Positions 4,870 through 63,194 of a stretch of DNA of 64,000 nt are shown here, in pieces; within the stretch, counting starts at the first letter, position 1, and the number at the start of each line of letters is the position of its first letter. The translations under genes and the position numbers were made by a program. Origin of the DNA: an uncultured Alphaproteobacteria bacterium. Its GTDB lineage: Bacteria > Pseudomonadota > Alphaproteobacteria > HIMB59 > GCA-002718135. Below the pieces are notes generated by a model. That model was not told the origin of the DNA, searched no databases, and saw nothing but the letters and a program-made list of their open reading frames with translations. The stretch is from positions 40,588 to 104,587 of the forward strand of contig CABYRE010000002.1 in the NCBI GenBank assembly GCA_902521325.1, written 5' to 3'.

Positions 4870-6021
4870 CTAAATCTTAAACAATTCTTGAGACAAATCA
4901 GGAAGTTCATCTCCCCAAAAAACTTCTTTACGTAAAAATTCTGGATCTTGGTTAAAACAAATTGACATTGCAGAATTATAAACAGCTCTGGAATCAACAG
5001 TCGAATTTAGATCTCTTCCCTCAAACAATTCTTTCTTTTTTAGTCCAGGCCAATCTGTATAAACTTGAGATTTTTTTAACAAGCCTCCAGCCATTAATAT
5101 TGCACTTCCATATCCGTGCTCAGTTCCATAGCCTCCATTTTGTTTTATAGTTCGACCAAATTCAGTGAGAGTAAGAATTAGTGTATTATCAAATGCTTGG
5201 CCAAGATTTTCATAAAGAATAGTAACAATCTTATTTACTTCTTCTAGTTCATCAGCATGCGCCCCATCAACACCTCCTTGAGCAGCATGGGTATCGAAAC
5301 CATCTAAATCAAATACAGCAACTCTAGGACCACTTTGATCTTTTAATTGTTTAGCAGCTTCAAGGGCAAGTTTTTTTCTATCGTCAGAGTCAGTAGCTAT
5401 TTGCATGGACAATGGTCTTTGTCTAATTGTATTAAGTGTCGATTTAATTAGCTCATTATGCTCACCCTTAAATTCATTATAAATTTGATCTATTAACTTT
5501 GTTTCAACAAAATCTGGTGATGGAAAAAAATTATTATTTTGTGGCACGCCTCTTAATAAAAGTGGCATTGGTAATGATATAGCCAAACCTTTTCCAATAA
5601 TATTTGAAGCTAGTAACCCCCTACCAAGCCATCCGGTTTTTTCTTTGTATGGAATGTGAGCTCCTGTTTCCATCAAATTTTGACCATCAAAATGAGATCT
5701 GCCTGTGTAGGGAATATTCGTTGCATGAACAAATGCCGCTTGATTTTTTTGCCAAAGTTTATGAAAAATTTCTAATTTAGGGTGAAGACCAAAGTCACTG
5801 TTTAGATTAAGAACATCTTCCAGAATGAGTTTTTTTCTCAATTTTTTGAGACGTTTATCTCCAATAACAGGAACAGCTGTTAAACCATCCATTCCTCCAC
5901 GAAGTGATATAATAATTAGATTTTTTTTCTGCATTGAGGCAAAACTAATTTTTGGAAAATATCCTGAAAGAAATAGTGTTGTTGATCCTCCAATTAAAAA
6001 ATTTCTTCTTGTGCAGTTCAT
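4870..6021 (-). CDS. DUF1501 protein: Tat-exported, alkaline-phosphatase/sulfatase-superfamily-like, function unknown.
   Basis: Twin-arginine signal MNCTRRNFLIGG. DUF1501 hallmarks are RGGMDGL, GRSHFDGQ, GFDTHA and EFGRT...GTEHG. Overlaps DUF1800 by 4 nt. Confidence 0.8.
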   Translation of the reverse strand: MNCTRRNFLIGGSTTLFLSGYFPKISFASMQKKNLIIISLRGGMDGLTAVPVIGDKRLKKLRKKLILEDVLNLNSDFGLHPKLEIFHKLWQKNQAAFVHATNIPYTGRSHFDGQNLMETGAHIPYKEKTGWLGRGLLASNIIGKGLAISLPMPLLLRGVPQNNNFFPSPDFVETKLIDQIYNEFKGEHNELIKSTLNTIRQRPLSMQIATDSDDRKKLALEAAKQLKDQSGPRVAVFDLDGFDTHAAQGGVDGAHADELEEVNKIVTILYENLGQAFDNTLILTLTEFGRTIKQNGGYGTEHGYGSAILMAGGLLKKSQVYTDWPGLKKKELFEGRDLNSTVDSRAVYNSAMSICFNQDPEFLRKEVFWGDELPDLSQELFKI

Positions 6022-7454
6022 ACTTTCAATACTCCAGGTAAATTACAAATGACTCCATACTTTTGGCCTAAATCATAATCTAATGTGCCGAACCTAAAAT
6101 TTTCAATAAGTGATGCCATATTTTCATGATCTTCAAAATTATTTTTAAGACAAGCTAAAATAAAATCATGGGATCTGTTCCCAGATTTAACAAGTATTGG
6201 AAGCTCAACAGAAGAGAACCAAAAGCGACGTAATAATAATTCTGGTGATACCCAATCTACCTCAAAATCACTCCAACCATTAGGTTGTTTGGCACGATAA
6301 GGTGAATGACCAATTTCTCTAAGTATCCATGATAGTTGTCTTTGTCTTCTATTTGGCTTTGAACTGAAAGAATAATTCATTTTTTCAGAAGAAAGAGGGA
6401 TATTTAAATCAAACATTCTAGATAATTGCATCAACCATATTTCTGGTGGATGAAATTTATGTGTATTCTCATTATGTTTGTAAGCTTGAGTAATAACTGC
6501 TTTGTGAATTTCAATTAGACTTCCATTGGATTTGTTCCATGCTTCTATTACTGGGTAAATTATATCTTCAGTTGGTTCATCTGTAATAAAATGCCTACAT
6601 AATTTTGTTGAAACAAATTTGATACAGATTGGGTGTGTTGCCAAATCATGAATTACTTTTGCAAGTTCTCTTTTTGCATCATTTTTATATTTAACTCCTA
6701 AAACTATTTTGTCTCCTTTTTGATGCATTTCTTGATCAAACCATATATCTCCTGTCTCTAAATTTTTTCTATCCCATTTGTGTGCCCAACCTGTCATAAT
6801 ATAGGCTAACTGAATAACATCATCCTGAGTGTATCCAGCATTTGGTGAAACAGTATGTAATTCTAGTAGTTCTCTTGCATGATTTTCATTTATAGTTTCT
6901 CGCCACTCCATTCCTTTTTTAGAATTGGGACCAAAAGATTCTGAGTTATCAAGATGGTGAATCATACACCATGAAGTAGTAACTGACTGAACCATCTCTT
7001 CAAAAGTTTTAACCATATTAGGTCTTATAATCTCACGTTGATAAGGCCCAGTGCTAAACTCTGCTAAAAAATCTTTTTCACTTATTGCAAAATGATTTCC
7101 CCAAAAAAGCCAAAAACGCTCAAAAACAGGCTGTTTGGAATACTTAGTTTGATAATGACGAATAGCATGTTCGTTTAATTCAAAATACCTTTCACCAGTT
7201 TTTATTCTTAATTCATCTTTTGCTTTTTTATAGGCATGTTTGTCATTTTTAAATTTTTTTCTTAAAACTTCTCTATCTCCGTATACCCACTCTCCATATT
7301 TTTTTCTTAATTCTTTTTCTGTTGGAATTATTCCAGGCCATAAGAGATTAGGTATAGTATCTAGTTGATTTAATGCCCAATTAAAAGGATCTTTATCTGG
7401 TTTATCATTTGGTGATAAACCAAACGCTACTCGTCTATAAAATTTTAATGACAT
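6018..7454 (-). CDS. DUF1800 protein (the usual partner of DUF1501), function unknown.
   Basis: 478 aa. The N-terminus FYRRVAFGLSP, the pattern ...WGNHFA...ELLELHTVSP... and its pairing with DUF1501 match that family as I remember it. Confidence 0.7.
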   Translation of the reverse strand: MSLKFYRRVAFGLSPNDKPDKDPFNWALNQLDTIPNLLWPGIIPTEKELRKKYGEWVYGDREVLRKKFKNDKHAYKKAKDELRIKTGERYFELNEHAIRHYQTKYSKQPVFERFWLFWGNHFAISEKDFLAEFSTGPYQREIIRPNMVKTFEEMVQSVTTSWCMIHHLDNSESFGPNSKKGMEWRETINENHARELLELHTVSPNAGYTQDDVIQLAYIMTGWAHKWDRKNLETGDIWFDQEMHQKGDKIVLGVKYKNDAKRELAKVIHDLATHPICIKFVSTKLCRHFITDEPTEDIIYPVIEAWNKSNGSLIEIHKAVITQAYKHNENTHKFHPPEIWLMQLSRMFDLNIPLSSEKMNYSFSSKPNRRQRQLSWILREIGHSPYRAKQPNGWSDFEVDWVSPELLLRRFWFSSVELPILVKSGNRSHDFILACLKNNFEDHENMASLIENFRFGTLDYDLGQKYGVICNLPGVLKV

Positions 7455-37935: not shown

Positions 37936-38517
37936 TTGAGAAAATTATTATTTTTTTCAAATAATAAAAACAAAACAATAGAAATAAAAAAAATTTTTAA
38001 AAAGTTTAAACTCGAAATTCTATCATTAAGTGATTTAGACATAAGCGATGAACCAAAAGAGAGTGGCCAAACTTTTGAGGAAAACGCTAAGATTAAATCA
38101 GACTACGGATTTAATAAAACTGGCTTTCCTTGTTTTGCCGATGACTCAGGAATATGTATTGAAAGCTTAAATTGGAAACCAGGTGTTCTTTCAAAAAGAT
38201 TTTTAAATAATTTCAAAAGTAATCAGGCTTGTTTTGAAAGTATAATTGAAAGTACTAAAAAAAATAATAAACAAAATGCTTACTTTAATACCTCAATAAG
38301 CCTAACAATTAAAAATAATCAAAACATTATATTTAATGGCAAGATTGATGGAAAAATTTCTGAACAAGCCAAGGGTAGATTTGGTTTTGGCTATGATCCA
38401 ATTTTCATTCCTAAAAATTATAACAAAACATTGGCCGAGCTAAGTACTAAAGAAAAAAATCAAATTAGCCATAGGTCTATAGCTGTAACAAAATTAATTA
38501 ACTTTTTAACTAATTAA
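37936..38517 (+). CDS. rdgB: Non-canonical purine NTP pyrophosphatase (dITP/XTP; RdgB/HAM1 family).
   Basis: TTG start. Contains ...EESGQTFEENA..K..., FADDSG and FGYDPIF. Confidence 0.8.
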   Translation: MRKLLFFSNNKNKTIEIKKIFKKFKLEILSLSDLDISDEPKESGQTFEENAKIKSDYGFNKTGFPCFADDSGICIESLNWKPGVLSKRFLNNFKSNQACFESIIESTKKNNKQNAYFNTSISLTIKNNQNIIFNGKIDGKISEQAKGRFGFGYDPIFIPKNYNKTLAELSTKEKNQISHRSIAVTKLINFLTN

Positions 38518-39838
38518 TTACAAAAGAATTTCCGTTATTTATCTTTAATATGTTAAGATCTCTCTCGATCATATTGTTTTTAAAATAAAAATTTCCATCA
38601 ACGCCATTAAATTTTTTATTTGGATTATTTAATAATCTTACTACGTCAGCAATTTTATATTGTTTGGAATAAATGAAATTTATTAGCCCTATTAAATCAT
38701 ATGGAAGTGTTGAAATTCTTAAAAACTCATCATCATATATTTCAATATAATTGTTAATTATGTTTATTCTTCTTGACTCAGGAACACCTGGATATATTGC
38801 TCCTTGCAAAGAGGGTTCGAAAAAAAAAGTTTTATCATCTATCACTCCAGTTCCCATAAACTGTACAATATTAGGATCTATGTCATAAAAAGGAAGAAGG
38901 GGTGCGACCTGTAATAAATTCAAACTATAATCAGCAATTAAGATGTGAGTAAAATCGTAGTCACTTGTAGTTTTAAATCTTTCTAATTTATTTAGTCTTT
39001 TTTTTGATTTTTCATCTTTTTTAGAAGATAAAATTTGTTTTTGTCTATTCAATTCATATTTTCTTAATTCATATTTTCCTAATTCTTTTATTGATTCTCT
39101 TACATTTGATAAATCTGCTTTATATGAAGATCTGTTTACTAATATTGCTGAGCTTTCAAATACTATATGATCAATTAGACTGTTTATTAAATAACCATAT
39201 TCATTCTCAGGATAAAGTAGCGCAACTTTTGCATTATCATTTAAATATAACATAAGTTGTGAAAGCTCGTTTTGTGGAAAAAAATTTATTAAGTAAACAC
39301 AATCTTTTGCTAGTGAAGACTTAGAGGAGTATGAAAAAAATATTACATTATGAGTACAATAATTATTTAAGAGCTTTGAATACTTAGATTGAATTGGTCC
39401 TAGAAAGATCTTCCCAGGTAATATATTTTTTTCTATAATTTTTTTTAGATCATTTTCATTTTCAAAAAATTCTATTTGAATAACAACATCATTTATACCA
39501 AGATTATAAATACCCAGTTCATAAGTACTCAAGAATTGTTTTGTGGTTTTTTTATCATCATCTTTTGCAAATAAAGCAATAATTGTTTTATCTAAGACAA
39601 CGTCCTCTAAAATCTTATTCTGTTTATCTTGTTTCTTTTCTTTTTTTTCAATTATTTTTTTTTCACTTTTAGTAATAATAGGTTTTTCAGAAATGGCTGT
39701 TTCTTGATCATTTTTTGTATCTTGTTTAGATAAATTTATTGGAGTACATGAAATTATAAATATAAATATATAAGTAATGAAAAATATTATTAATGGTCTC
39801 TCAATAGTAGCAACTCCTATTGGCAATTTAGATGACAT
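38510..39838 (-). CDS. Lipoprotein, LpoA/LppC-like penicillin-binding-protein activator (periplasmic-binding-protein fold).
   Basis: Lipobox IISC (Cys31). It is divergent from rsmI, as E. coli lpoA(yraM) is from rsmI(yraL). I have not verified sequence-level similarity. Confidence 0.45.
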   Translation of the reverse strand: MSSKLPIGVATIERPLIIFFITYIFIFIISCTPINLSKQDTKNDQETAISEKPIITKSEKKIIEKKEKKQDKQNKILEDVVLDKTIIALFAKDDDKKTTKQFLSTYELGIYNLGINDVVIQIEFFENENDLKKIIEKNILPGKIFLGPIQSKYSKLLNNYCTHNVIFFSYSSKSSLAKDCVYLINFFPQNELSQLMLYLNDNAKVALLYPENEYGYLINSLIDHIVFESSAILVNRSSYKADLSNVRESIKELGKYELRKYELNRQKQILSSKKDEKSKKRLNKLERFKTTSDYDFTHILIADYSLNLLQVAPLLPFYDIDPNIVQFMGTGVIDDKTFFFEPSLQGAIYPGVPESRRINIINNYIEIYDDEFLRISTLPYDLIGLINFIYSKQYKIADVVRLLNNPNKKFNGVDGNFYFKNNMIERDLNILKINNGNSFVIN

Positions 39839-47074: not shown

Positions 47075-48409
47075 ATGAGCATTTTTAAAAGCATCAAATT
47101 TGAATTACTTATTTTAGTATTAATTACATTAAGTATTTTTGCTTCTTTTAATTTAGATCTTTTTTTTTATAATTATTTTATAAACCTAAATGATTGGGCA
47201 AATGGATTTTTTCTAAAAGAATTTTTTTCAGAAATAACAAAACTTGGTAGTTCGTCTTGGTATTTTTCTATTACAATAATAGGCTTTGTTGTTTTTTATA
47301 TAAACAACAGACTTCAAATCATAAAAACTAAATCAACAAAAAATCTTTCTGATTTTTTTATTTCTTCCTTTGTATATATTTTGACAGTAGGGATAATTAC
47401 TCAAATTATAAAACATGTTGTAGGAAGGCCCAGACCAAATCATACTGATTTTGAAGACGTTTTTAGTTTTAAATATTTTACCATGGAATCAAATTTTCAT
47501 TCTTTTCCCTCTGGACACTCTTCTACGATATTTATTGTTTGCTTTATTTTGGTTTCTATTCTTCCAAAATTAAAATATTTTTTTTATTTTTTAGCTTCAA
47601 TTGTTGCTTTTAGTCGAGTTATTGTGAGCGCACATTTTTTTACAGATATTGTTGCTGGAGCAATTTTAGCTTTAATATTATTTAAGATTTTAAATAAATT
47701 AATAGAGAACAAATATAATAAATACAAATTATCAAATTTAATTCCTGAAAAAAATTCTGAGATTTTTTATTACATTCTAATTTTATTTTTTAGTTGTGTG
47801 TTTGTGACTGCCGGTCCATCCTTAGATTTATATGTATCATCTTTGTTTTATAAGGGTGCATCACAATTTGAACTACAAAGTTTTGATTTAACCTCAATAT
47901 TGTTTCGAGATATTTTACTACCACTAATACTGATTTATATTTTAATTTTACCGATAGTTGGGCGTTTCTTAAAAATTGATAGAATTTTTTTTAATTATAA
48001 ATTTTCTATTAAGGAAATATCTTTCTTATGGATTTCTCAAATTATTAGCGTTTTAATATTTGTAAATCTTATACTAAAAAATTTTTGGGGTAGGGCAAGA
48101 CCAAACGATGTAGTGGAGTTGGATGGCAAAGAGTCTTTTTCCCCTTGGTTTGAAATAACCAATGCTTGTGAAACAAACTGCTCCTTTGTTTCAGGTGATG
48201 CTTCTGTTGGGTTTTCAATTATTGTTTTATATTTAATTACAAAAAAAATAATTTTTCTTTATGGAAGCTTTGTTGCTGGTTTTGTATTTGGCTTGATTAG
48301 AATAATGGCTGGTGGTCATTTTTTAAGTGACATTTTTTTTGCTGGCTTTTTTATTGTAATTTTAAATATAATTTTATTTGAATTGTATAAAAAATATTAT
48401 GTTAAATAA
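47075..48409 (+). CDS. Membrane protein with two tandem PAP2 (acid phosphatase / lipid phosphatase) domains.
   Basis: Domain 1 has KHVVGRPRPN, PSGHSS and SRVIVSAHFFTD. Domain 2 has KNFWGRARPN, NCSFVSGDAS and IRIMAGGHFLSD. It is multi-TM throughout. Confidence 0.75.
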   Translation: MSIFKSIKFELLILVLITLSIFASFNLDLFFYNYFINLNDWANGFFLKEFFSEITKLGSSSWYFSITIIGFVVFYINNRLQIIKTKSTKNLSDFFISSFVYILTVGIITQIIKHVVGRPRPNHTDFEDVFSFKYFTMESNFHSFPSGHSSTIFIVCFILVSILPKLKYFFYFLASIVAFSRVIVSAHFFTDIVAGAILALILFKILNKLIENKYNKYKLSNLIPEKNSEIFYYILILFFSCVFVTAGPSLDLYVSSLFYKGASQFELQSFDLTSILFRDILLPLILIYILILPIVGRFLKIDRIFFNYKFSIKEISFLWISQIISVLIFVNLILKNFWGRARPNDVVELDGKESFSPWFEITNACETNCSFVSGDASVGFSIIVLYLITKKIIFLYGSFVAGFVFGLIRIMAGGHFLSDIFFAGFFIVILNIILFELYKKYYVK

Positions 48410-49784
48410 AATTTTGTTGCCATCATTTATTTTTTTACTTTTATTAAAAATTGGTGCCTTAAATTTTACTACCTTTAATTTGTTTGGTGATGAAGCACAG
48501 TATTGGTTATGGTCAAAAAATATTGACTTTGGTTATTTTTCGAAACCGCCATTTTTGTCCTGGATAATAAGGGTTTATACCGAAATATTAGGTAGTAGTT
48601 TTGTTTCATTAAAACTTCTCCCATCGTTTGTTTATTTATTGATTTCCTGGAGTATTTATAATCTTTTAATTAGCGCTGGAATAAACAAAAAAGATTCATT
48701 CGCGGGTTGTTTAATTTTTTTATTTATACCCGCTGTTTCTTTTTCATCTTTTATAATTAGTACTGATCTTTTTTTATTATTATTTTGGACACTTTCACTT
48801 AATGAATTAGTAAAGATCAATGGTGAACATAGTTTAAAAAATTTTATATTATTAGGTATTTTTCTGGGGTTAGGTTTTTTATCAAAATACGCAGCTATAT
48901 ATTTTGTGATTTGTTTATTTGTTTTAATTTTACTAGATAAAAGATTTAGAAAAATTTTTTTGGATAATTTATTTGGTTTTTGTCTTACCTTTTTATGTGT
49001 ATTTGTAATTATCGTACCAAATATTATTTGGAACTTTAATAATGACTGGATAACACTTCAGCATACTTCGGATAATGCAAATTTTGGAAATATTGAAATA
49101 GATCTCATTAGAGGTTTAGAATTTTTGTTAATTCAAGTTTTAATGTTAGGCCCGTTTATGGTTTTGGGTGGGATATTTGGATTTAATAAATGGAACTATA
49201 TTCAAAAAATTTTTCTAATATTTTCTATGCCTATAATTTTAATTGTTTTTGTAGAAGCTATTATTGTAAGAGCTAATGCAAATTGGGCTGCTCCAGCTTT
49301 AATTTCTTTATTTGCTCTTTTATATATTAGAATTAATAATTCTTTTTTAAAGATTGCTAATTATATGTTTAATTTTATTGTCTGCTTAATTCTTTTTGTA
49401 ATGATTGGAATTAGCTATCCGTCTAAAATTTTTGACCGAATAAGTGGTATAAATGATTATGCTCTAAAAATTTACAGTGGTTCTTCAGATGGTGTCATAA
49501 AAAATATAGTGGTTTCAGATCGGCTTTTATTTTCGAGCCTTAATTTTGAATTAAGAGATAAGGATATTAATTTCTATATGCCACATAAAGAAGGAGATGA
49601 AATAACAAATCACTTTAAAATAGTATCTCCCCTTAATAAAAATATAAATGAAAACTTTACTTTAATTGGGAGCCCCTCAGATATTAATTATTTAGAGAAA
49701 GAATATATGGTGTTAAAAATAAATTCACCTGATCAGAAATTTACAAAAAGAAAACTTGATGTTTACGAGGTTTTGTTTGAATAA
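48399..49784 (+). CDS. GT-C fold glycosyltransferase of the ArnT/PMT (PMT_2) family.
   Basis: N-terminal FGDEAQYWLWSKNIDFGYFSKPPFLSWI, followed by many TM helices and a soluble C-terminal domain. The ORF-track start at 48378 is a TTG. I prefer ATG at 48399, which overlaps the PAP2 gene by 11 nt. Confidence 0.7.
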   Translation: MLNKILLPSFIFLLLLKIGALNFTTFNLFGDEAQYWLWSKNIDFGYFSKPPFLSWIIRVYTEILGSSFVSLKLLPSFVYLLISWSIYNLLISAGINKKDSFAGCLIFLFIPAVSFSSFIISTDLFLLLFWTLSLNELVKINGEHSLKNFILLGIFLGLGFLSKYAAIYFVICLFVLILLDKRFRKIFLDNLFGFCLTFLCVFVIIVPNIIWNFNNDWITLQHTSDNANFGNIEIDLIRGLEFLLIQVLMLGPFMVLGGIFGFNKWNYIQKIFLIFSMPIILIVFVEAIIVRANANWAAPALISLFALLYIRINNSFLKIANYMFNFIVCLILFVMIGISYPSKIFDRISGINDYALKIYSGSSDGVIKNIVVSDRLLFSSLNFELRDKDINFYMPHKEGDEITNHFKIVSPLNKNINENFTLIGSPSDINYLEKEYMVLKINSPDQKFTKRKLDVYEVLFE

Positions 49785-50430
49785 ATTTCTAGTATTTTTT
49801 ATTATATTTGTAATTAACACATCCTATGCAAATAATTTTAGTGCAGAATATAAAGTCAGCACAACAGGAATAAAAATTGGTAATTTTAGTTGGTCATTAA
49901 ATATTAATGATAATATTTTTCAAACAGAAATTAATTTGAAAAATTCTGGCATTTTTTCGCCTTTATATAAATTTGAAGGAAGCTATCTTTCAACTGGGGT
50001 TATTGAAAACAACATGTTTAAGACCAAGAATTATAAACAGTTTTGGAAAACTAATAAGAAAATAAAAATAGTTAAAATGTCTTTTGATGATTATTTAATT
50101 GAATTAAAACAAGAGCCTATAGAAGAAGAAAGAGCTAGAGTAGACCTAGAAGACTTATATTTATATTTTGACCCAATTACCTCTTTTATAAATATTTTAA
50201 ATGGAGAAAATGAGGCAAAAACAATTGATGGGAGAAGAATTTACACACTTAAACAAAACAAAAGTGAGGATGGAAATATAATTTTAGAAATTGAAGACTA
50301 TGTAAATATTTGGGCAGACCATAAAAGAAATGATTTAAAAAAAATTGAATTTTTAGTTAAAGATGATTTACTTCCATATGAAATTCTTATTCATTTCAAA
50401 AAAAGGGTGTTTAAGTTAGAAAGAATTTAA
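49759..50430 (+). CDS. DUF3108-like secreted protein.
   Basis: Has a signal peptide, then FSAEYKVSTTGIKIGNFSWSL..., the DUF3108 opening pattern as I remember it. Overlaps the GT-C gene. Confidence 0.5.
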   Translation: MFTRFCLNKFLVFFIIFVINTSYANNFSAEYKVSTTGIKIGNFSWSLNINDNIFQTEINLKNSGIFSPLYKFEGSYLSTGVIENNMFKTKNYKQFWKTNKKIKIVKMSFDDYLIELKQEPIEEERARVDLEDLYLYFDPITSFINILNGENEAKTIDGRRIYTLKQNKSEDGNIILEIEDYVNIWADHKRNDLKKIEFLVKDDLLPYEILIHFKKRVFKLERI

Positions 50431-50966
50431 AACTTTTTTTTTCTTAAATAGACAAAAAGAGCTCCGTCACCCCCATGTTCAAAACCCGCATCTTGATATG
50501 TTAGGATATATTTCTTAAGATTGTCTTCGTTTATCCAATTTATTATTGAGTTTTTAATCTTTCCATAGAAAAGTTTGGGGTTTGTGTCTTGCTCATTTTG
50601 ATTTTTTTTATGAACACCCTTTCCAGTAATTATAAGCAAACATCTTTTATTCTTGTTATAATTTTTTTTCACCTCACTTATAAATTTTTCATGCGCTTCG
50701 ACTAAACCGTACCCGTGAAGATCAATTCTTCTATCTATATTAATTTTTCCTCTCTTAAGCTCCTTATTAACCTCACCAAATGATAATTTAAACTCTGGGC
50801 TACTAACTTTGTGTTCAGTTATTGTTTTTTTGCTGGTATTTATAGTATTAGTTTTTTTATCTAATTTTACATTTTTTTTATTAGTTGTTTTCGTTTTAAC
50901 TATAGAGGTGTCTTTTTTAAAAGGTTTTACACCTTTCATGTTTTTTAAAAAAAAATCTTCTTCCAT
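50427..50966 (-). CDS. Smr-domain protein.
   Basis: C-terminal IDLHGYGLVEAHEKF...LLIITGKG... Confidence 0.8.
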   Translation of the reverse strand: MEEDFFLKNMKGVKPFKKDTSIVKTKTTNKKNVKLDKKTNTINTSKKTITEHKVSSPEFKLSFGEVNKELKRGKINIDRRIDLHGYGLVEAHEKFISEVKKNYNKNKRCLLIITGKGVHKKNQNEQDTNPKLFYGKIKNSIINWINEDNLKKYILTYQDAGFEHGGDGALFVYLRKKKF

Positions 50967-51394
50967 TATTTTTTTGTATAGTTTTTAATTAAATTCTTTA
51001 CTCTTTCCGGTGTTTGCAAATACCACAAGCTGTCTAACATCTCTAGTGATGCCATGAATTTTTGTTTTTTATTTAGAAAATGGAGCATTTTTTTAAATTT
51101 AGAGACGCCTTTTGCCCCAAGTTGAAAAATCATTTCTACTAATAATTCTTTCTCAGAGGTTGTGTGATGTTTTTTAAAAAAATTTTTTTTGTATTGTTCG
51201 TTTGCTTTTATAAAATCTATCTCAAACAATTTTTCAAAATATTTTTTTTTAAATTTTTTAATGTAATATTTATTTTCTTTTTCTGTAATGAGATGGCCAT
51301 AGCCAATAGTATAAAACCCTAATTGATCTTGATAAGGCTTATCAGAATAACCTTCGTTTTTTTTAATTCGATCTTTGAGTTCTTTAAAAGACAA
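50966..51394 (-). CDS. GH24 (T4/lambda-type) lysozyme-like muramidase.
   Basis: KKNEGYSDKPYQDQLGFYTIGYGHLI aligns with the T4 lysozyme EG...Y.D..G..TIG.GH block. The catalytic Glu, Asp and Thr positions are all present. Confidence 0.7.
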   Translation of the reverse strand: MSFKELKDRIKKNEGYSDKPYQDQLGFYTIGYGHLITEKENKYYIKKFKKKYFEKLFEIDFIKANEQYKKNFFKKHHTTSEKELLVEMIFQLGAKGVSKFKKMLHFLNKKQKFMASLEMLDSLWYLQTPERVKNLIKNYTKK

Positions 51395-61781: not shown

Positions 61782-62709
61782 TAATTTTTTTAATATTCAA
61801 AAGAAAACGAAGACCAACAACCAAAGATAAGCCGCTTTCTTTTCTTAAAATACTTTCTGTTGACGAAAGCAATTTTAAAAGCATTTTTTTCTTTTTAGAA
61901 TTATATTTTCTATAAATATCAATTAAATAATTTTTTTCTTTAAATAGATATATTGGAATTTTTTTTTTATATTCATCCTCACTATTACAATCTATGATAA
62001 GCTGGCAGAAAAATTTACTATAATAATAAAGTTCGTTTACATCTGAGTTATTTATAATTTTATCTCTATAAAGCCCAATAATTTCCTTATTTTTTTGAAG
62101 TAAATTGAAGAAAATTCTTTCTTTACCAGATTCATCAACAGTCAATATTTTCTTAATTTTATCCAATGTTATGTCTTGTTTGTTTAATTCAAGTACTTTA
62201 ATTAAATTTTTTTCAAAGAAAATATATTTACTATCTAATTTATCAATCAAAAACCAATAAACATCTTGCGAGATCTCTAATTTATTTACTCTTAAAAATT
62301 CATTTAAAATTTTTATTTTTGAATCTTTGTCTAACTCATAGCAATCAATTAAATAAGAATCTTTATCAACGCTAAATAAATTTTTTATCTTTTTAATTTT
62401 CTGTGAATTTTCCTGTAAAAAAATAAAATGATTTTCTGATAATCTTAAATTATCTAAAGACTCTTTATCTATTTCTTTATTACCATTCACAATGTATATG
62501 TTTTTATCTCCAAAAAGCCCAACTTCATCAACAAAATCACTAATTGTTTCTATATTTTTTACTTGAACATTTTCTTTTTTTTTAAAACCTTCAACAATTA
62601 TTTTTTTTATTTTTTCCATAAGTGTTTTTTCATTACCACTTATAAAATAAAATTTTTTATTTAAAACCGATGCTTGGTTTATAAGTATGTTCAATGAATT
62701 GATTTTCAT
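61771..62709 (-). CDS. holA: DNA polymerase III delta subunit.
   Basis: 312 aa. Called mainly from the conserved leuS-lptE-holA order and from size. Sequence motifs are weak in this AT-rich ortholog. Confidence 0.65.
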   Translation of the reverse strand: MKINSLNILINQASVLNKKFYFISGNEKTLMEKIKKIIVEGFKKKENVQVKNIETISDFVDEVGLFGDKNIYIVNGNKEIDKESLDNLRLSENHFIFLQENSQKIKKIKNLFSVDKDSYLIDCYELDKDSKIKILNEFLRVNKLEISQDVYWFLIDKLDSKYIFFEKNLIKVLELNKQDITLDKIKKILTVDESGKERIFFNLLQKNKEIIGLYRDKIINNSDVNELYYYSKFFCQLIIDCNSEDEYKKKIPIYLFKEKNYLIDIYRKYNSKKKKMLLKLLSSTESILRKESGLSLVVGLRFLLNIKKITIS

Positions 62710-63194
62710 GAACAGCTATTTAAATCTCTATCAATTATTATAGAAACAAATCGATTTAAATTTTCAGTTACAGCCAATTGATATTTTTTTTCTAAAGATG
62801 AGTCAGTACCATAATTATAACCAGAAGACTTAGGAATTATAGAAAAATGAGATACCAATTCTTTATCAAAGGTTACACAATTTTTTTCATTTAAGACTAA
62901 TATATAAATAAATTTGAGCTCATATCTTAATTTTGACGTAGCCTGATTTGTTTCTACAGACCTTTTTATTTTATTTTGTTCAACTTCGATTGATAGACTA
63001 AAACGACCTTCTTTTTTGTTGCCAAAAAACATTGGAAGGTATGAGTTCATAAAAGTTATATCTAAACCGGAGGTACTAACTTCTGTTCTCTCATACAAAG
63101 GATTTATAAGATTTTTATCTTCTTTATAAATGAAATCGATATCACCACAGGATATAATAAAAGTAAATATAGTGACGAAAAATAACTTTTTCAT
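62706..63194 (-). CDS. lptE: LPS-assembly lipoprotein LptE.
   Basis: Lipobox IISC, 162 aa, positioned between leuS and holA. Confidence 0.65.
   Translation of the reverse strand: MKKLFFVTIFTFIISCGDIDFIYKEDKNLINPLYERTEVSTSGLDITFMNSYLPMFFGNKKEGRFSLSIEVEQNKIKRSVETNQATSKLRYELKFIYILVLNEKNCVTFDKELVSHFSIIPKSSGYNYGTDSSLEKKYQLAVTENLNRFVSIIIDRDLNSCS

What the first reader, a model, noticed from the sequence alone, without database searches (positions are those of the whole stretch)
47075..50430. Fused double-PAP2 phosphatase, ArnT-like GT-C transferase and DUF3108: candidate module for making phosphate-free, glycosylated lipid A
Three plus-strand genes overlap one another (48399-48409 and 49759-49784), implying a single unit. 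The first encodes two complete PAP2 domains in one polytopic membrane protein. Domain 1 has the canonical tripartite motif (KHVVGRPRP / PSGH / SRVIVSAHFFTD). Domain 2 has a variant motif (KNFWGRARP / NCSFVSGD / IRIMAGGHFLSD, with the motif-2 His replaced by Asp). The second gene is a GT-C enzyme of the ArnT/PMT family (FGDEAQYW...GYFSKPP). This family uses polyprenyl-phosphate sugars on the periplasmic face. The third is a secreted DUF3108 protein. In Rhizobium and Francisella, PAP2 enzymes LpxE and LpxF remove the 1- and 4'-phosphates of lipid A. ArnT-like enzymes (the Rhizobium Rgt family) then add galacturonic acid, and Caulobacter lipid A is phosphate-free with uronic acid substituents. 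I infer that a single two-headed phosphatase could strip both phosphates, with the GT-C enzyme capping at least one position. For an organism living at nanomolar phosphate this would be an envelope-level phosphorus-sparing system. I am not aware of a described fused LpxE-LpxF-type protein.
Basis: partly seen in the sequence, partly recalled or inferred. Interest (0 to 1): 0.55.

Follow-up and report, generated by a model that had tools for sequence, protein, structure and literature searches.

The report
SAR11 two-headed lipid A phosphatase operon
A conserved three-gene unit in the ocean bacterium SAR11 encodes a fused pair of membrane phosphatases, a matching sugar transferase and a small secreted protein; it most likely strips the phosphates from the outer-membrane lipid A and puts a sugar on at least one of the freed positions, a known kind of pathway in a fused form I found no paper describing.

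Summary
Three plus-strand genes overlap by 11 and 26 nt: a 444-aa protein with two complete PAP2 domains, a 461-aa GT-C (PMT_2) transferase, and a 223-aa secreted DUF3108 protein. The window is Pelagibacteraceae, and the unit and its flanks are kept in a SAR11 relative with only about 55% identity.

The interpretation largely survives the tests I could run:
- **C-terminal domain.** It belongs to a sharply defined LpxF-like clade. The Asp in motif 2 is normal there, where H, D and E all occur.
- **N-terminal domain.** It groups with PAP2 enzymes that are fused to LpxF-like domains or sit next to ArnT-like transferases. It does not group with E. coli PgpB, YbjG or LpxT.
- **GT-C.** It belongs to a distinct subfamily found within 300 nt of the LpxF-like gene in 33 of 75 named genomes.
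- **Wider pattern.** Several taxa carry a full set of two phosphatases and two GT-Cs, some with an ArnC-like GT2 gene as well. A 36%-identical relative has GT-C, fusion, GT-C.
- **Topology.** A confident AlphaFold model and loop charges place both active sites in the periplasm.

DUF3108 was found beside the module only in the SAR11 loci. Neither a second GT-C nor a donor-sugar synthase lies in the window. The phosphorus-sparing rationale is untested. I rate it a new variant of a known kind.

The parts
47075..48409 (+). Fused double-PAP2 integral membrane phosphatase, 444 aa, 12 predicted transmembrane helices
   Evidence: Pfam PAP2 129 bits in two stretches. AlphaFold2 pLDDT 85.6, pTM 0.85. 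Foldseek best matches are B. subtilis PgpB (5jki, target-normalised TM-score 0.70) and Aquifex LpxE (6ebu, 0.61). At least 120 full-length or near-full-length homologues of 54-96% identity; those that carry a source name are called Pelagibacteraceae.
47075..47749 (+). N-terminal classical PAP2 domain (aa 1-225), KX6RP / PSGH / SRX5HX3D; inferred lipid A 1-phosphatase (LpxE-like by genomic context)
   Evidence: Motif residues are present and invariant in SAR11. The domain scores 95 bits to the N-domain of the L006 fusion, 68-80 bits to four stand-alone PAP2s next to ArnT-like GT-Cs, and 45-67 bits to the classical-PAP2 halves of reverse-order fusions, against 7-32 bits to PgpB, YbjG and LpxT. 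No NCBIfam LpxE hit at E<=0.01.
47750..48406 (+). C-terminal LpxF-like PAP2 domain (aa 226-444), K..WGRARP / C..NCSFVSGD / R...GGHFLSD; inferred lipid A 4'-phosphatase
   Evidence: NCBIfam NF045633 LpxF 8.3e-30, covering model positions 8-214 of 217, but 104 bits against a cut-off of 400. Clean separation from other PAP2s. Family signature with two invariant Cys. The motif-2 residue is D, H or E across the family. JGI names homologues 'lipid A 4'-phosphatase'.
48399..49784 (+). GT-C fold glycosyltransferase (461 aa from the ATG; alternative TTG start at 48378), of the 'LpxF-partner' subfamily; inferred transfer of a sugar from a polyprenyl-phosphate donor to dephosphorylated lipid A
   Evidence: Pfam PMT_2 81 bits and PMT 30 bits. 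NCBIfam ArnT only 27 bits. Shares D31, E32, K49, P50, W55, D123 and K163 with E. coli ArnT and the type A GT-Cs. Homologues of 114-530 bits sit within 300 nt of the LpxF-like gene in 33 of 75 genome loci.
49759..50430 (+). Secreted DUF3108 protein (223 aa) with a signal-peptide-like N-terminus; role unknown, possibly an envelope beta-barrel accessory
   Evidence: Pfam DUF3108 27.8 bits against a cut-off of 26. The precomputed Pfam label for almost all homologues is PF11306. The secondary structure is beta-rich but the model is poor, pLDDT 45. Found next to the module only in the SAR11 loci. The literature describes DUF3108 as an outer-membrane beta-barrel with the YmcC fold, PDB 3FZX (PMC4364669).
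45181..47045 (+). hslV-hslU, immediately upstream on the same strand (29-nt gap); possible co-transcription, not part of the function
   Evidence: ORFs and gap. The same arrangement is present in L005. The promoter and terminator scan found no more sites than expected by chance.

Best explanation
This is a lipid A remodelling unit that acts on the periplasmic face of the inner membrane.

1. The 12-helix fusion protein carries two PAP2 active sites on the periplasmic side.
2. The C-terminal LpxF-like domain removes the 4'-phosphate of lipid A. The N-terminal classical PAP2 domain removes the 1-phosphate, in the role of LpxE.
3. The translationally coupled GT-C enzyme then transfers a sugar from a polyprenyl-phosphate donor, which is made elsewhere in the genome, onto the freed position. 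Its subfamily partners with LpxF-like phosphatases across bacteria, so that position is most likely the 4'-hydroxyl.
4. The secreted DUF3108 protein is a SAR11-specific add-on of unknown role.

Shown here: the gene structure, domain identities, family placement, predicted topology, and conservation of the gene linkage. Inferred: the substrate (lipid A), which domain acts on which position, the acceptor position, and the sugar.
For: - **LpxF-like domain.** It matches NCBIfam LpxF end to end, has a distinct signature and separates cleanly from other PAP2s.
- **N-domain.** It clusters with 13 of the 17 non-SAR11 PAP2s that are either fused to LpxF-like domains or adjacent to ArnT-like GT-Cs, not with PgpB, YbjG or LpxT.
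- **Independent fusions.** The same two PAP2 types are fused in both orders, and L080 carries a classical-PAP2/type B GT-C fusion.
- **Full clusters.** The arrangement [ArnT-like GT-C]-[classical PAP2]-[window-type GT-C]-[LpxF-like] recurs in Alphaproteobacteria (L020), Hydrogenophilaceae/Hydrogenophilales, Tepidiphilus and a betaproteobacterial MAG (L049, L059, L030, L080); Sulfurospirillum (L066) and L006 hold the same four parts in a different order. An ArnC-like GT2 scored in L030 and L066, and a GT2-like ORF lies at the matching place in L049 and L059. L006, whose fusion is 36% identical, has GT-C / fusion / GT-C with overlapping genes.
- **GT-C linkage.** A window-type GT-C lies within 300 nt of the LpxF-like gene in 33 of 75 named genome loci, and within 2 kb in 6 more.
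- **Catalytic residues.** The GT-C keeps the DE...KP...D...K residues shared with E. coli ArnT.
- **Topology.** 12 helices at pLDDT 85.6. Lys/Arg make up 11 of 39 residues in the predicted cytoplasmic loops against 9 of 137 in the periplasmic loops, so both motif sets face the periplasm.
- **Published precedent.** In Rhizobium, LpxE and LpxF dephosphorylate lipid A at the periplasmic face and RgtF and RgtD add GalA from a lipid-linked donor made by RgtE (PMC9393093). lpxE is adjacent to rgtF in M. loti and lies between rgtE and rgtF in Oligotropha (PMC7663294 and PMC7795004).
Against: - The LpxF model score (104 bits) is far below the equivalog cut-off (400), so orthology to a characterised LpxF is not established.
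- The N-domain has no LpxE-specific match. Its best solved relative is a PGP phosphatase, 5jki.
- No sequences of characterised RgtD, RgtF, LpxE or LpxF were available to me, so the equation 'window-type GT-C = RgtD-like' rests on linkage, similar size (RgtD is 473 aa) and PMT-type annotation only.
- Only one GT-C, and no ArnC-like GT2, is in the 64-kb window.
- About half of the LpxF-like genes in other genomes have no adjacent GT-C.
- The loci were chosen by anchoring on LpxF-like genes, so they cannot show that this GT-C type never occurs elsewhere.
- My searches of the held library found no paper on SAR11 lipid A structure.
Confidence: 0.6

Rival explanations
1. Only the 4' position is remodelled (LpxF-like domain plus GT-C). 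The N-terminal classical PAP2 domain is mainly a housekeeping phosphatase for undecaprenyl pyrophosphate and/or phosphatidylglycerophosphate, fused for co-expression in a streamlined genome. Lipid A would keep its 1-phosphate.
For: The N-domain's closest solved relative is B. subtilis PgpB. Cluster-linked PAP2s in other taxa give weak hits to Und-PP phosphatase, PgpB and LpxE models alike. Published work shows LpxE enzymes also dephosphorylate Und-PP (PMC6581854, abstract). Only one GT-C is present here.
Against: The N-domain scores much higher with PAP2s that sit beside ArnT-like GT-Cs or are fused to LpxF-like domains than with PgpB, YbjG or LpxT. The two PAP2 types have been fused independently in both orders, which points to a shared substrate. 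The relative L006 pairs the fusion with two GT-Cs. A dual role is compatible with the main explanation.
Confidence: 0.2
2. The GT-C does not act on lipid A itself. It glycosylates the LPS core (as RgtA-C do), another envelope glycan, or periplasmic proteins (PMT-like), and its linkage to the phosphatases reflects general envelope co-regulation.
For: Pfam PMT matches at 30 bits against a cut-off of 22.7. Similarity to ArnT is weak. RgtA-C are described as core GalA transferases of the same broad family (my own knowledge of the Rhizobium literature; not tested here).
Against: The gene abuts or overlaps the LpxF-like phosphatase gene in many unrelated lineages. There is a specific one-to-one pairing of each GT-C type with one PAP2 type, and L080 carries a classical-PAP2/window-type GT-C fusion.
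Confidence: 0.1
3. One or both PAP2 domains act as phosphotransferases rather than hydrolases, as LpxT does, and so move phosphate onto lipid A or another acceptor.
For: LpxT is a PAP2 protein that acts on lipid A (annotation; PMC2229476 abstract). The N-domain scores 28 bits to E. coli LpxT.
Against: That score is far below the scores to the cluster-linked PAP2s. The C-domain is LpxF-like. Pairing with glycosyltransferases that need a free hydroxyl fits hydrolysis better.
Confidence: 0.05

Closest known systems
Rhizobium/Mesorhizobium LpxE + LpxF phosphatases with the RgtF/RgtD GalA transferases and the RgtE donor synthase
   Same: PAP2 phosphatases remove the 1- and 4'-phosphates at the periplasmic face, and ArnT-like GT-C enzymes then add a sugar from a polyprenyl-phosphate donor. 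The phosphatase and transferase genes are often clustered: lpxE-rgtF in M. loti and rgtE-lpxE-rgtF in Oligotropha (PMC9393093, PMC7663294, PMC7795004).
   Different: Here the two phosphatases are one polypeptide. Only one GT-C is adjacent, and no RgtE-like GT2 is nearby. The sugar is unknown. A DUF3108 gene is appended. Orthology to RgtD, LpxE or LpxF could not be tested against the characterised sequences.
LpxF as modelled by NCBIfam NF045633 (lipid A 4'-phosphatase)
   Same: End-to-end alignment of the C-terminal domain to the model (positions 8-214 of 217, E 8e-30).
   Different: 104 bits against an equivalog cut-off of 400. In SAR11 the motif-2 residue is Asp; the wider LpxF-like clade has H, D or E there. 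In SAR11 the domain is fused to a second PAP2.
E. coli ArnT / ArnC (L-Ara4N modification of lipid A phosphates)
   Same: GT-C fold family. The DE...KP...D...K residues are shared. Related clusters in other taxa include ArnC-like GT2 enzymes scoring 192-211 bits to the ArnC model.
   Different: The window GT-C scores only 27 bits to the ArnT model and lacks a 12-residue insert between the DE and KP motifs. ArnT decorates the phosphates, whereas this module is paired with phosphatases.
Aquifex aeolicus LpxE (PDB 6EBU) and B. subtilis PgpB (PDB 5JKI)
   Same: The same six-helix membrane PAP2 fold: target-normalised TM-scores 0.61 and 0.70.
   Different: Both are single-domain enzymes with about 20% identity. 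The PDB search returned no two-domain PAP2 protein.
Double-PAP2 proteins with the LpxF-like domain first, in Stellaceae and other Alphaproteobacteria
   Same: The same two PAP2 types in one protein, usually with the same GT-C subfamily next door.
   Different: The domain order is reversed, the GT-C is convergent rather than co-directional, a Mito_fiss_Elm1 gene lies upstream, and there is no DUF3108.

Membership tests
PAP2 superfamily (PF01569) | Score above the Pfam gathering threshold | tested here: met
   129.4 bits against a cut-off of 27.2, in two stretches.
PAP2 superfamily (PF01569) | Tripartite motif KX6RP / PSGH / SRX5HX3D | tested here: met
   Domain 1 has the complete motif. Domain 2 has K335-R342-P343, SGD (Asp for His), and R409-H415-D419. 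The nucleophile His and its Asp are kept in both domains.
LpxF lipid A 4'-phosphatase (NCBIfam NF045633, equivalog) | Score at or above the curated equivalog cut-off (400 bits) | tested here: not met
   104.3 bits. The alignment is nevertheless full length (model positions 8-214 of 217).
LpxF lipid A 4'-phosphatase (NCBIfam NF045633, equivalog) | Removal of the 4'-phosphate of lipid A | not testable with these tools
   Needs an enzyme assay or lipid A mass spectrometry.
LpxF-like clade as defined here (K..WGRARP ... C..NCSF.SG[HDE] ... R...G.HF.SD) | Signature present, and reciprocal scores separate the clade from other PAP2s | tested here: met
   Signature. 80-129 bits to clade members against 25 bits or less to all other PAP2s.
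LpxE lipid A 1-phosphatase (NCBIfam NF007159) | Match to the curated LpxE model | tested here: not met
   No hit at E<=0.01 for the window protein. Even cluster-linked PAP2s of other taxa reach only 24-25 bits against a cut-off of 177.
LpxE lipid A 1-phosphatase (functional class) | Genomic pairing with an ArnT-like 1-position transferase, as with lpxE-rgtF | tested here: inconclusive
   Not met in the window, which has no ArnT-like type A GT-C. Met in relatives: L006, L020, L029, L052 and L066.
ArnT (NCBIfam NF009784, equivalog; GT83) | Score at or above the cut-off (567 bits) | tested here: not met
   27 bits, N-terminal region only. phmmer with E. coli ArnT gives no significant hit.
GT-C ArnT/PMT_2 superfamily (PF13231) | Pfam threshold, plus the conserved first-loop Asp-Glu and the Lys-Pro motif | tested here: met
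   81 bits against a cut-off of 26.1. D31, E32, K49 and P50 align with E. coli ArnT.
RgtD (Rhizobium lipid A 4'-GalA transferase) | Sequence orthology to RL0684 | not tested
   No tool gave access to the reference sequence. There are only indirect parallels: RgtD is 473 aa and carries a PMT-type annotation.
Protein O-mannosyltransferase (PF02366 PMT) | Pfam threshold, and a protein acceptor | tested here: inconclusive
   30.2 bits against a cut-off of 22.7, on the same stretch as the stronger PMT_2 hit. The acceptor cannot be tested. The linkage to lipid A phosphatase genes argues against a protein acceptor.
DUF3108 (PF11306) | Score above the gathering threshold | tested here: met
   27.8 bits against a cut-off of 26, covering profile positions 1-140 of 209. 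Homologues carry the same precomputed label. The YmcC-like barrel fold could not be confirmed because the model has pLDDT 45.

The most novel reading that the evidence does not exclude
SAR11 builds a lipid A with no phosphate at all. A single bifunctional enzyme removes both phosphates and a dedicated GT-C caps the 4' position with a sugar. Endotoxin from SAR11 would then differ chemically from the enterobacterial model, and the outer leaflet would return a small but constant share of cell phosphorus to the periplasm for re-uptake. The SAR11-specific DUF3108 protein would be a new accessory of this pathway.
Probability: 0.35. Interest if true: 0.7.

Novelty: new variant of a known kind. Interest (0 to 1): 0.5.

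Why it matters
If the prediction holds, the outer membrane of SAR11, widely regarded as among the most abundant bacteria in the sea, carries dephosphorylated, glycosylated lipid A. That bears on four things: the phosphorus budget of oligotrophic cells, surface charge and cation dependence of the outer membrane, phage and grazer recognition, and how marine 'endotoxin' should be interpreted.

My rough estimate of the phosphorus involved, from textbook LPS densities and SAR11 cell size, is a few per cent of cell phosphorus. I did not compute this with any tool.

More generally, the comparative data define three things that can guide annotation in many phyla: a sharp LpxF-like signature, a GT-C subfamily that partners with it, and a recurrent module of two phosphatases and two transferases. 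The independent fusions are a natural pointer to which enzymes work together.

Tried and rejected
It was repeated with 8 sequences.
- The listing of cluster members on ten fusion representatives gave almost no organism names.
- PDB sequence searches for the GT-C and for DUF3108, by single sequence and by profile, found nothing meaningful.
- The AlphaFold2 model of DUF3108 from a shallow alignment (84-96% identity) was poor, pLDDT 45, so I ran no fold search on it.
- The promoter and terminator scan found no more sites than shuffled sequence.
- The first single-linkage clustering of neighbouring ORFs was swamped by antisense ORFs in GC-rich loci. I redid it with non-overlapping ORFs and reciprocal hits.
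- The rgtF paper (PMC3608353) is not held. A vaccine-informatics paper on H. pylori LpxF contained no usable sequence.
- I considered the motif-2 Asp as a sign of an inactive domain and rejected that reading, because D, H and E all occur across the clade and Asp is invariant in SAR11.
- I also rejected the idea that the fusion is unique to SAR11.

Full report
**What is there.** The window has about 30% G+C. The closest homologues of the first gene are 85-96% identical, and those that carry a source name are called Pelagibacteraceae, so this is a SAR11 genome segment. Three plus-strand ORFs follow hslVU after a 29-nt gap:
- 47075-48409, 444 aa
- 48399-49784, 461 aa from the ATG, with an alternative TTG start at 48378
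- 49759-50430, 223 aa

They overlap by 11 and 26 nt. The unit ends against a convergent Smr gene.

Pfam assigns two PAP2 stretches to the first protein (129 bits), PMT_2 and PMT to the second, and DUF3108 just above threshold to the third. All are invariant in 69 SAR11 homologues of 54-92% identity.

A SAR11 contig whose three proteins are only 53-58% identical keeps the same three genes and both flanks, while HslU is 91.5% identical.

**The C-terminal domain.** It aligns end to end with the NCBIfam LpxF model at E 8e-30, although 104 bits is far below the 400-bit equivalog cut-off. A search of 1.8 billion representative proteins and a profile search define a sharp clade with the signature K..WGRARP ... 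C..NCSF.SG[H/D/E] ... R...G.HF.SD. JGI labels many members 'lipid A 4'-phosphatase'. The window domain scores 80-129 bits to every clade member tested and 25 bits or less to any other PAP2.

It is always D in SAR11. It is therefore a family trait and not a defect.

**The N-terminal domain.** It has the canonical motif but no specific curated match. The best solved relative is B. subtilis PgpB, and there is no LpxE model hit. In direct comparison its scores are:

| Compared with | Bits |
|---|---|
| N-domain of a distant fusion (L006) | 95 |
| Stand-alone PAP2s beside ArnT-like GT-Cs in L020, L029, L052, L066 | 68-80 |
| Classical halves of reverse-order fusions | 45-67 |
| Betaproteobacterial cluster PAP2s (L030, L049, L059, L080) | 24-35 |
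| B. subtilis PgpB | 32 |
| E. coli LpxT | 28 |
| E. coli YbjG | 19 |
| E. coli PgpB | 7 |

. That criterion is not met.

**Fusions.** Double-PAP2 proteins that contain one LpxF-like and one classical domain are common. They occur in both orders: classical-then-LpxF in SAR11 and L006, and LpxF-then-classical in Stellaceae and many other Alphaproteobacteria. One betaproteobacterial MAG fuses the classical PAP2 to a GT-C (L080). Independent fusions of the same partners are strong evidence that they act together. They also show that the fusion is not special to SAR11. My searches of the held library found no paper that describes such a natural fusion.

**The GT-C.** GT-Cs in the collected loci fall into two groups that do not cross-hit.
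- **Type B** is the window type. Members score 114-530 bits to the window protein and give no phmmer hit to ArnT.
- **Type A** is ArnT-like. Members score 28-78 bits to E. coli ArnT.

In 80 loci from named genomes, anchored on the LpxF-like gene, 75 had a recognisable LpxF-like ORF. In 33 of these a type B GT-C lies within 300 nt, usually overlapping, and in 6 more it lies within 2 kb. The lineages include Rickettsiales, Rhodospirillales, Stellaceae, Kiloniellales, Hyphomicrobiales, Hydrogenophilales, Tepidiphilus and Sulfurospirillum.

Type A GT-Cs in the same loci sit next to the classical PAP2 instead. Several taxa have the full set: [type A]-[classical PAP2]-[type B]-[LpxF-like] in L020, L030, L049, L059 and L080, with the same four parts in another order in L066. 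An ArnC-like GT2 scored 192-211 bits to the ArnC model in L030 and L066, and a GT2-like ORF lies at the matching place in L049 and L059. A GT2-like neighbour family recurs in 16 loci.

L006, whose fusion is 36% identical to the window protein, has [type A]-[fusion]-[type B] with overlapping genes.

Types A and B and E. coli ArnT share D31, E32, K49, P50, W55, D123 and K163. Type B lacks a 12-residue insert.

One caveat applies. The loci were anchored on LpxF-like genes, so these data show how often an LpxF-like gene has this neighbour. They do not show that type B never occurs elsewhere.

**Fit to known biology.** In Rhizobium and its relatives, LpxE and LpxF dephosphorylate positions 1 and 4' at the periplasmic face. 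RgtF and RgtD then add GalA from a donor made by RgtE (PMC9393093). lpxE is adjacent to rgtF in M. loti and lies between rgtE and rgtF in Oligotropha. This is the same layout as the [GT2]-[type A]-[classical PAP2] blocks found here. RgtD is 473 aa and carries a PMT-type annotation, like type B.

I could not obtain the reference sequences. The equations type A = RgtF-like and type B = RgtD-like are therefore inferences.

**Topology.** AlphaFold2 gives a confident 12-helix model, pLDDT 85.6 and pTM 0.85. Each half resembles membrane PAP2 enzymes: 5jki at target-normalised TM-score 0.70 and Aquifex LpxE 6ebu at 0.61. With the N-terminus inside, the predicted cytoplasmic loops hold 11 Lys/Arg in 39 residues. 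The periplasmic loops hold 9 in 137, and six of those are motif residues. Both catalytic motif sets and the conserved Cys pair face the periplasm.

**DUF3108.** All 120 listed homologues are at least 84% identical. A profile built from them finds the gene only in the two SAR11 loci among the 88 related loci collected. The structure model is unusable, pLDDT 45, though it is beta-rich after a signal-like helix. The literature describes the family as an outer-membrane beta-barrel with the YmcC fold (PMC4364669). Translational coupling suggests co-expression, but the protein's role remains open.

**What is missing, and the phosphorus argument.** The window holds no second GT-C and no ArnC-like GT2. 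If position 1 is dephosphorylated, it is either left free or capped by an enzyme encoded elsewhere. The sugar donor must also be made elsewhere.

The phosphorus-sparing idea is plausible but untested. The module also occurs in genomes of lineages not tied to the open ocean, and it appears to be a core gene here rather than part of an island. My rough estimate of the saving is only a few per cent of cell phosphorus. My searches found no published SAR11 lipid A structure.

**Verdict.** I rate it a new variant of a known kind: the LpxE/LpxF plus Rgt-type pathway with the two phosphatases fused and a lineage-specific DUF3108 gene added.

Noticed in passing
L006:4442-8791 (also L007:3342-7691): An AT-rich metagenome relative carries a complete, overlapping operon of [ArnT-like GT-C, 519 aa]-[classical-PAP2/LpxF-like fusion, 472 aa]-[window-type GT-C, 468 aa]. 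This is the two-phosphatase, two-transferase set that the SAR11 window lacks.
   Followed up: partly
L080:5524-7941: One continuous 805-aa reading frame joins a classical PAP2 domain (motifs at residues 98 and 165) to a window-type GT-C. It lies between an ArnT-like GT-C and a stand-alone LpxF-like gene in a betaproteobacterial MAG. A sequencing error was not excluded.
   Followed up: partly
L062:7068-8729 and L088:7060-8729: Hyphomicrobium genomes carry two LpxF-like genes in tandem, with a divergent GT-C (about 65 bits to the window protein) about 1 kb downstream.
   Followed up: no
L001:7031-7999, L003:7069-8000, L004:7022-7996, L042:7055-8041: A Mito_fiss_Elm1 (PF06258) gene lies directly upstream of the LpxF-first double-PAP2 fusion. 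A neighbour family of the same size and position (representative L042:7055-8041, not itself scanned against Pfam) recurs in 11 loci. It may be a further partner of the module.
   Followed up: no
P0227 (381 aa): An LpxF-like domain is fused to a GNAT acetyltransferase domain (precomputed Pfam PF00583, PF13673 and PF13508).
   Followed up: no
L083 (contig DATGZW010000603.1): An LpxF-like gene sits on a contig labelled 'Patescibacteria group bacterium'. I would not expect that lineage to make LPS (my own knowledge, not checked), so this may be bin contamination.
   Followed up: no
window 4870-7454 (-) and L006:1-1409: A DUF1501/DUF1800 gene pair is in the window, and the same pair lies a few kb upstream of the lipid A module in L006.
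   Followed up: no
window 50427-51394 (-): An Smr-domain protein (its stop overlaps the DUF3108 stop by 4 nt, convergently) and a phage-lysozyme-family protein follow the unit. Both are conserved at the same place in the 55%-identity SAR11 relative L005.
   Followed up: partly
window 62706-63194 (-): A 162-aa protein with a lipoprotein-like start (…FIISCG) lies between leuS and a 312-aa ORF that I read by eye as holA. From my own knowledge, lptE usually sits at this position. Pfam gives no hit.
   Followed up: partly
window 38510-39838 (-): A 442-aa ORF with one N-terminal hydrophobic segment and a Lys/Glu-rich stretch has no Pfam match.
   Followed up: no
literature: PMC3597751: A marine-metagenome correlation study placed DUF3108 in a cluster of domains that its authors linked to nutrient limitation. 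This may simply track SAR11 abundance.
   Followed up: no
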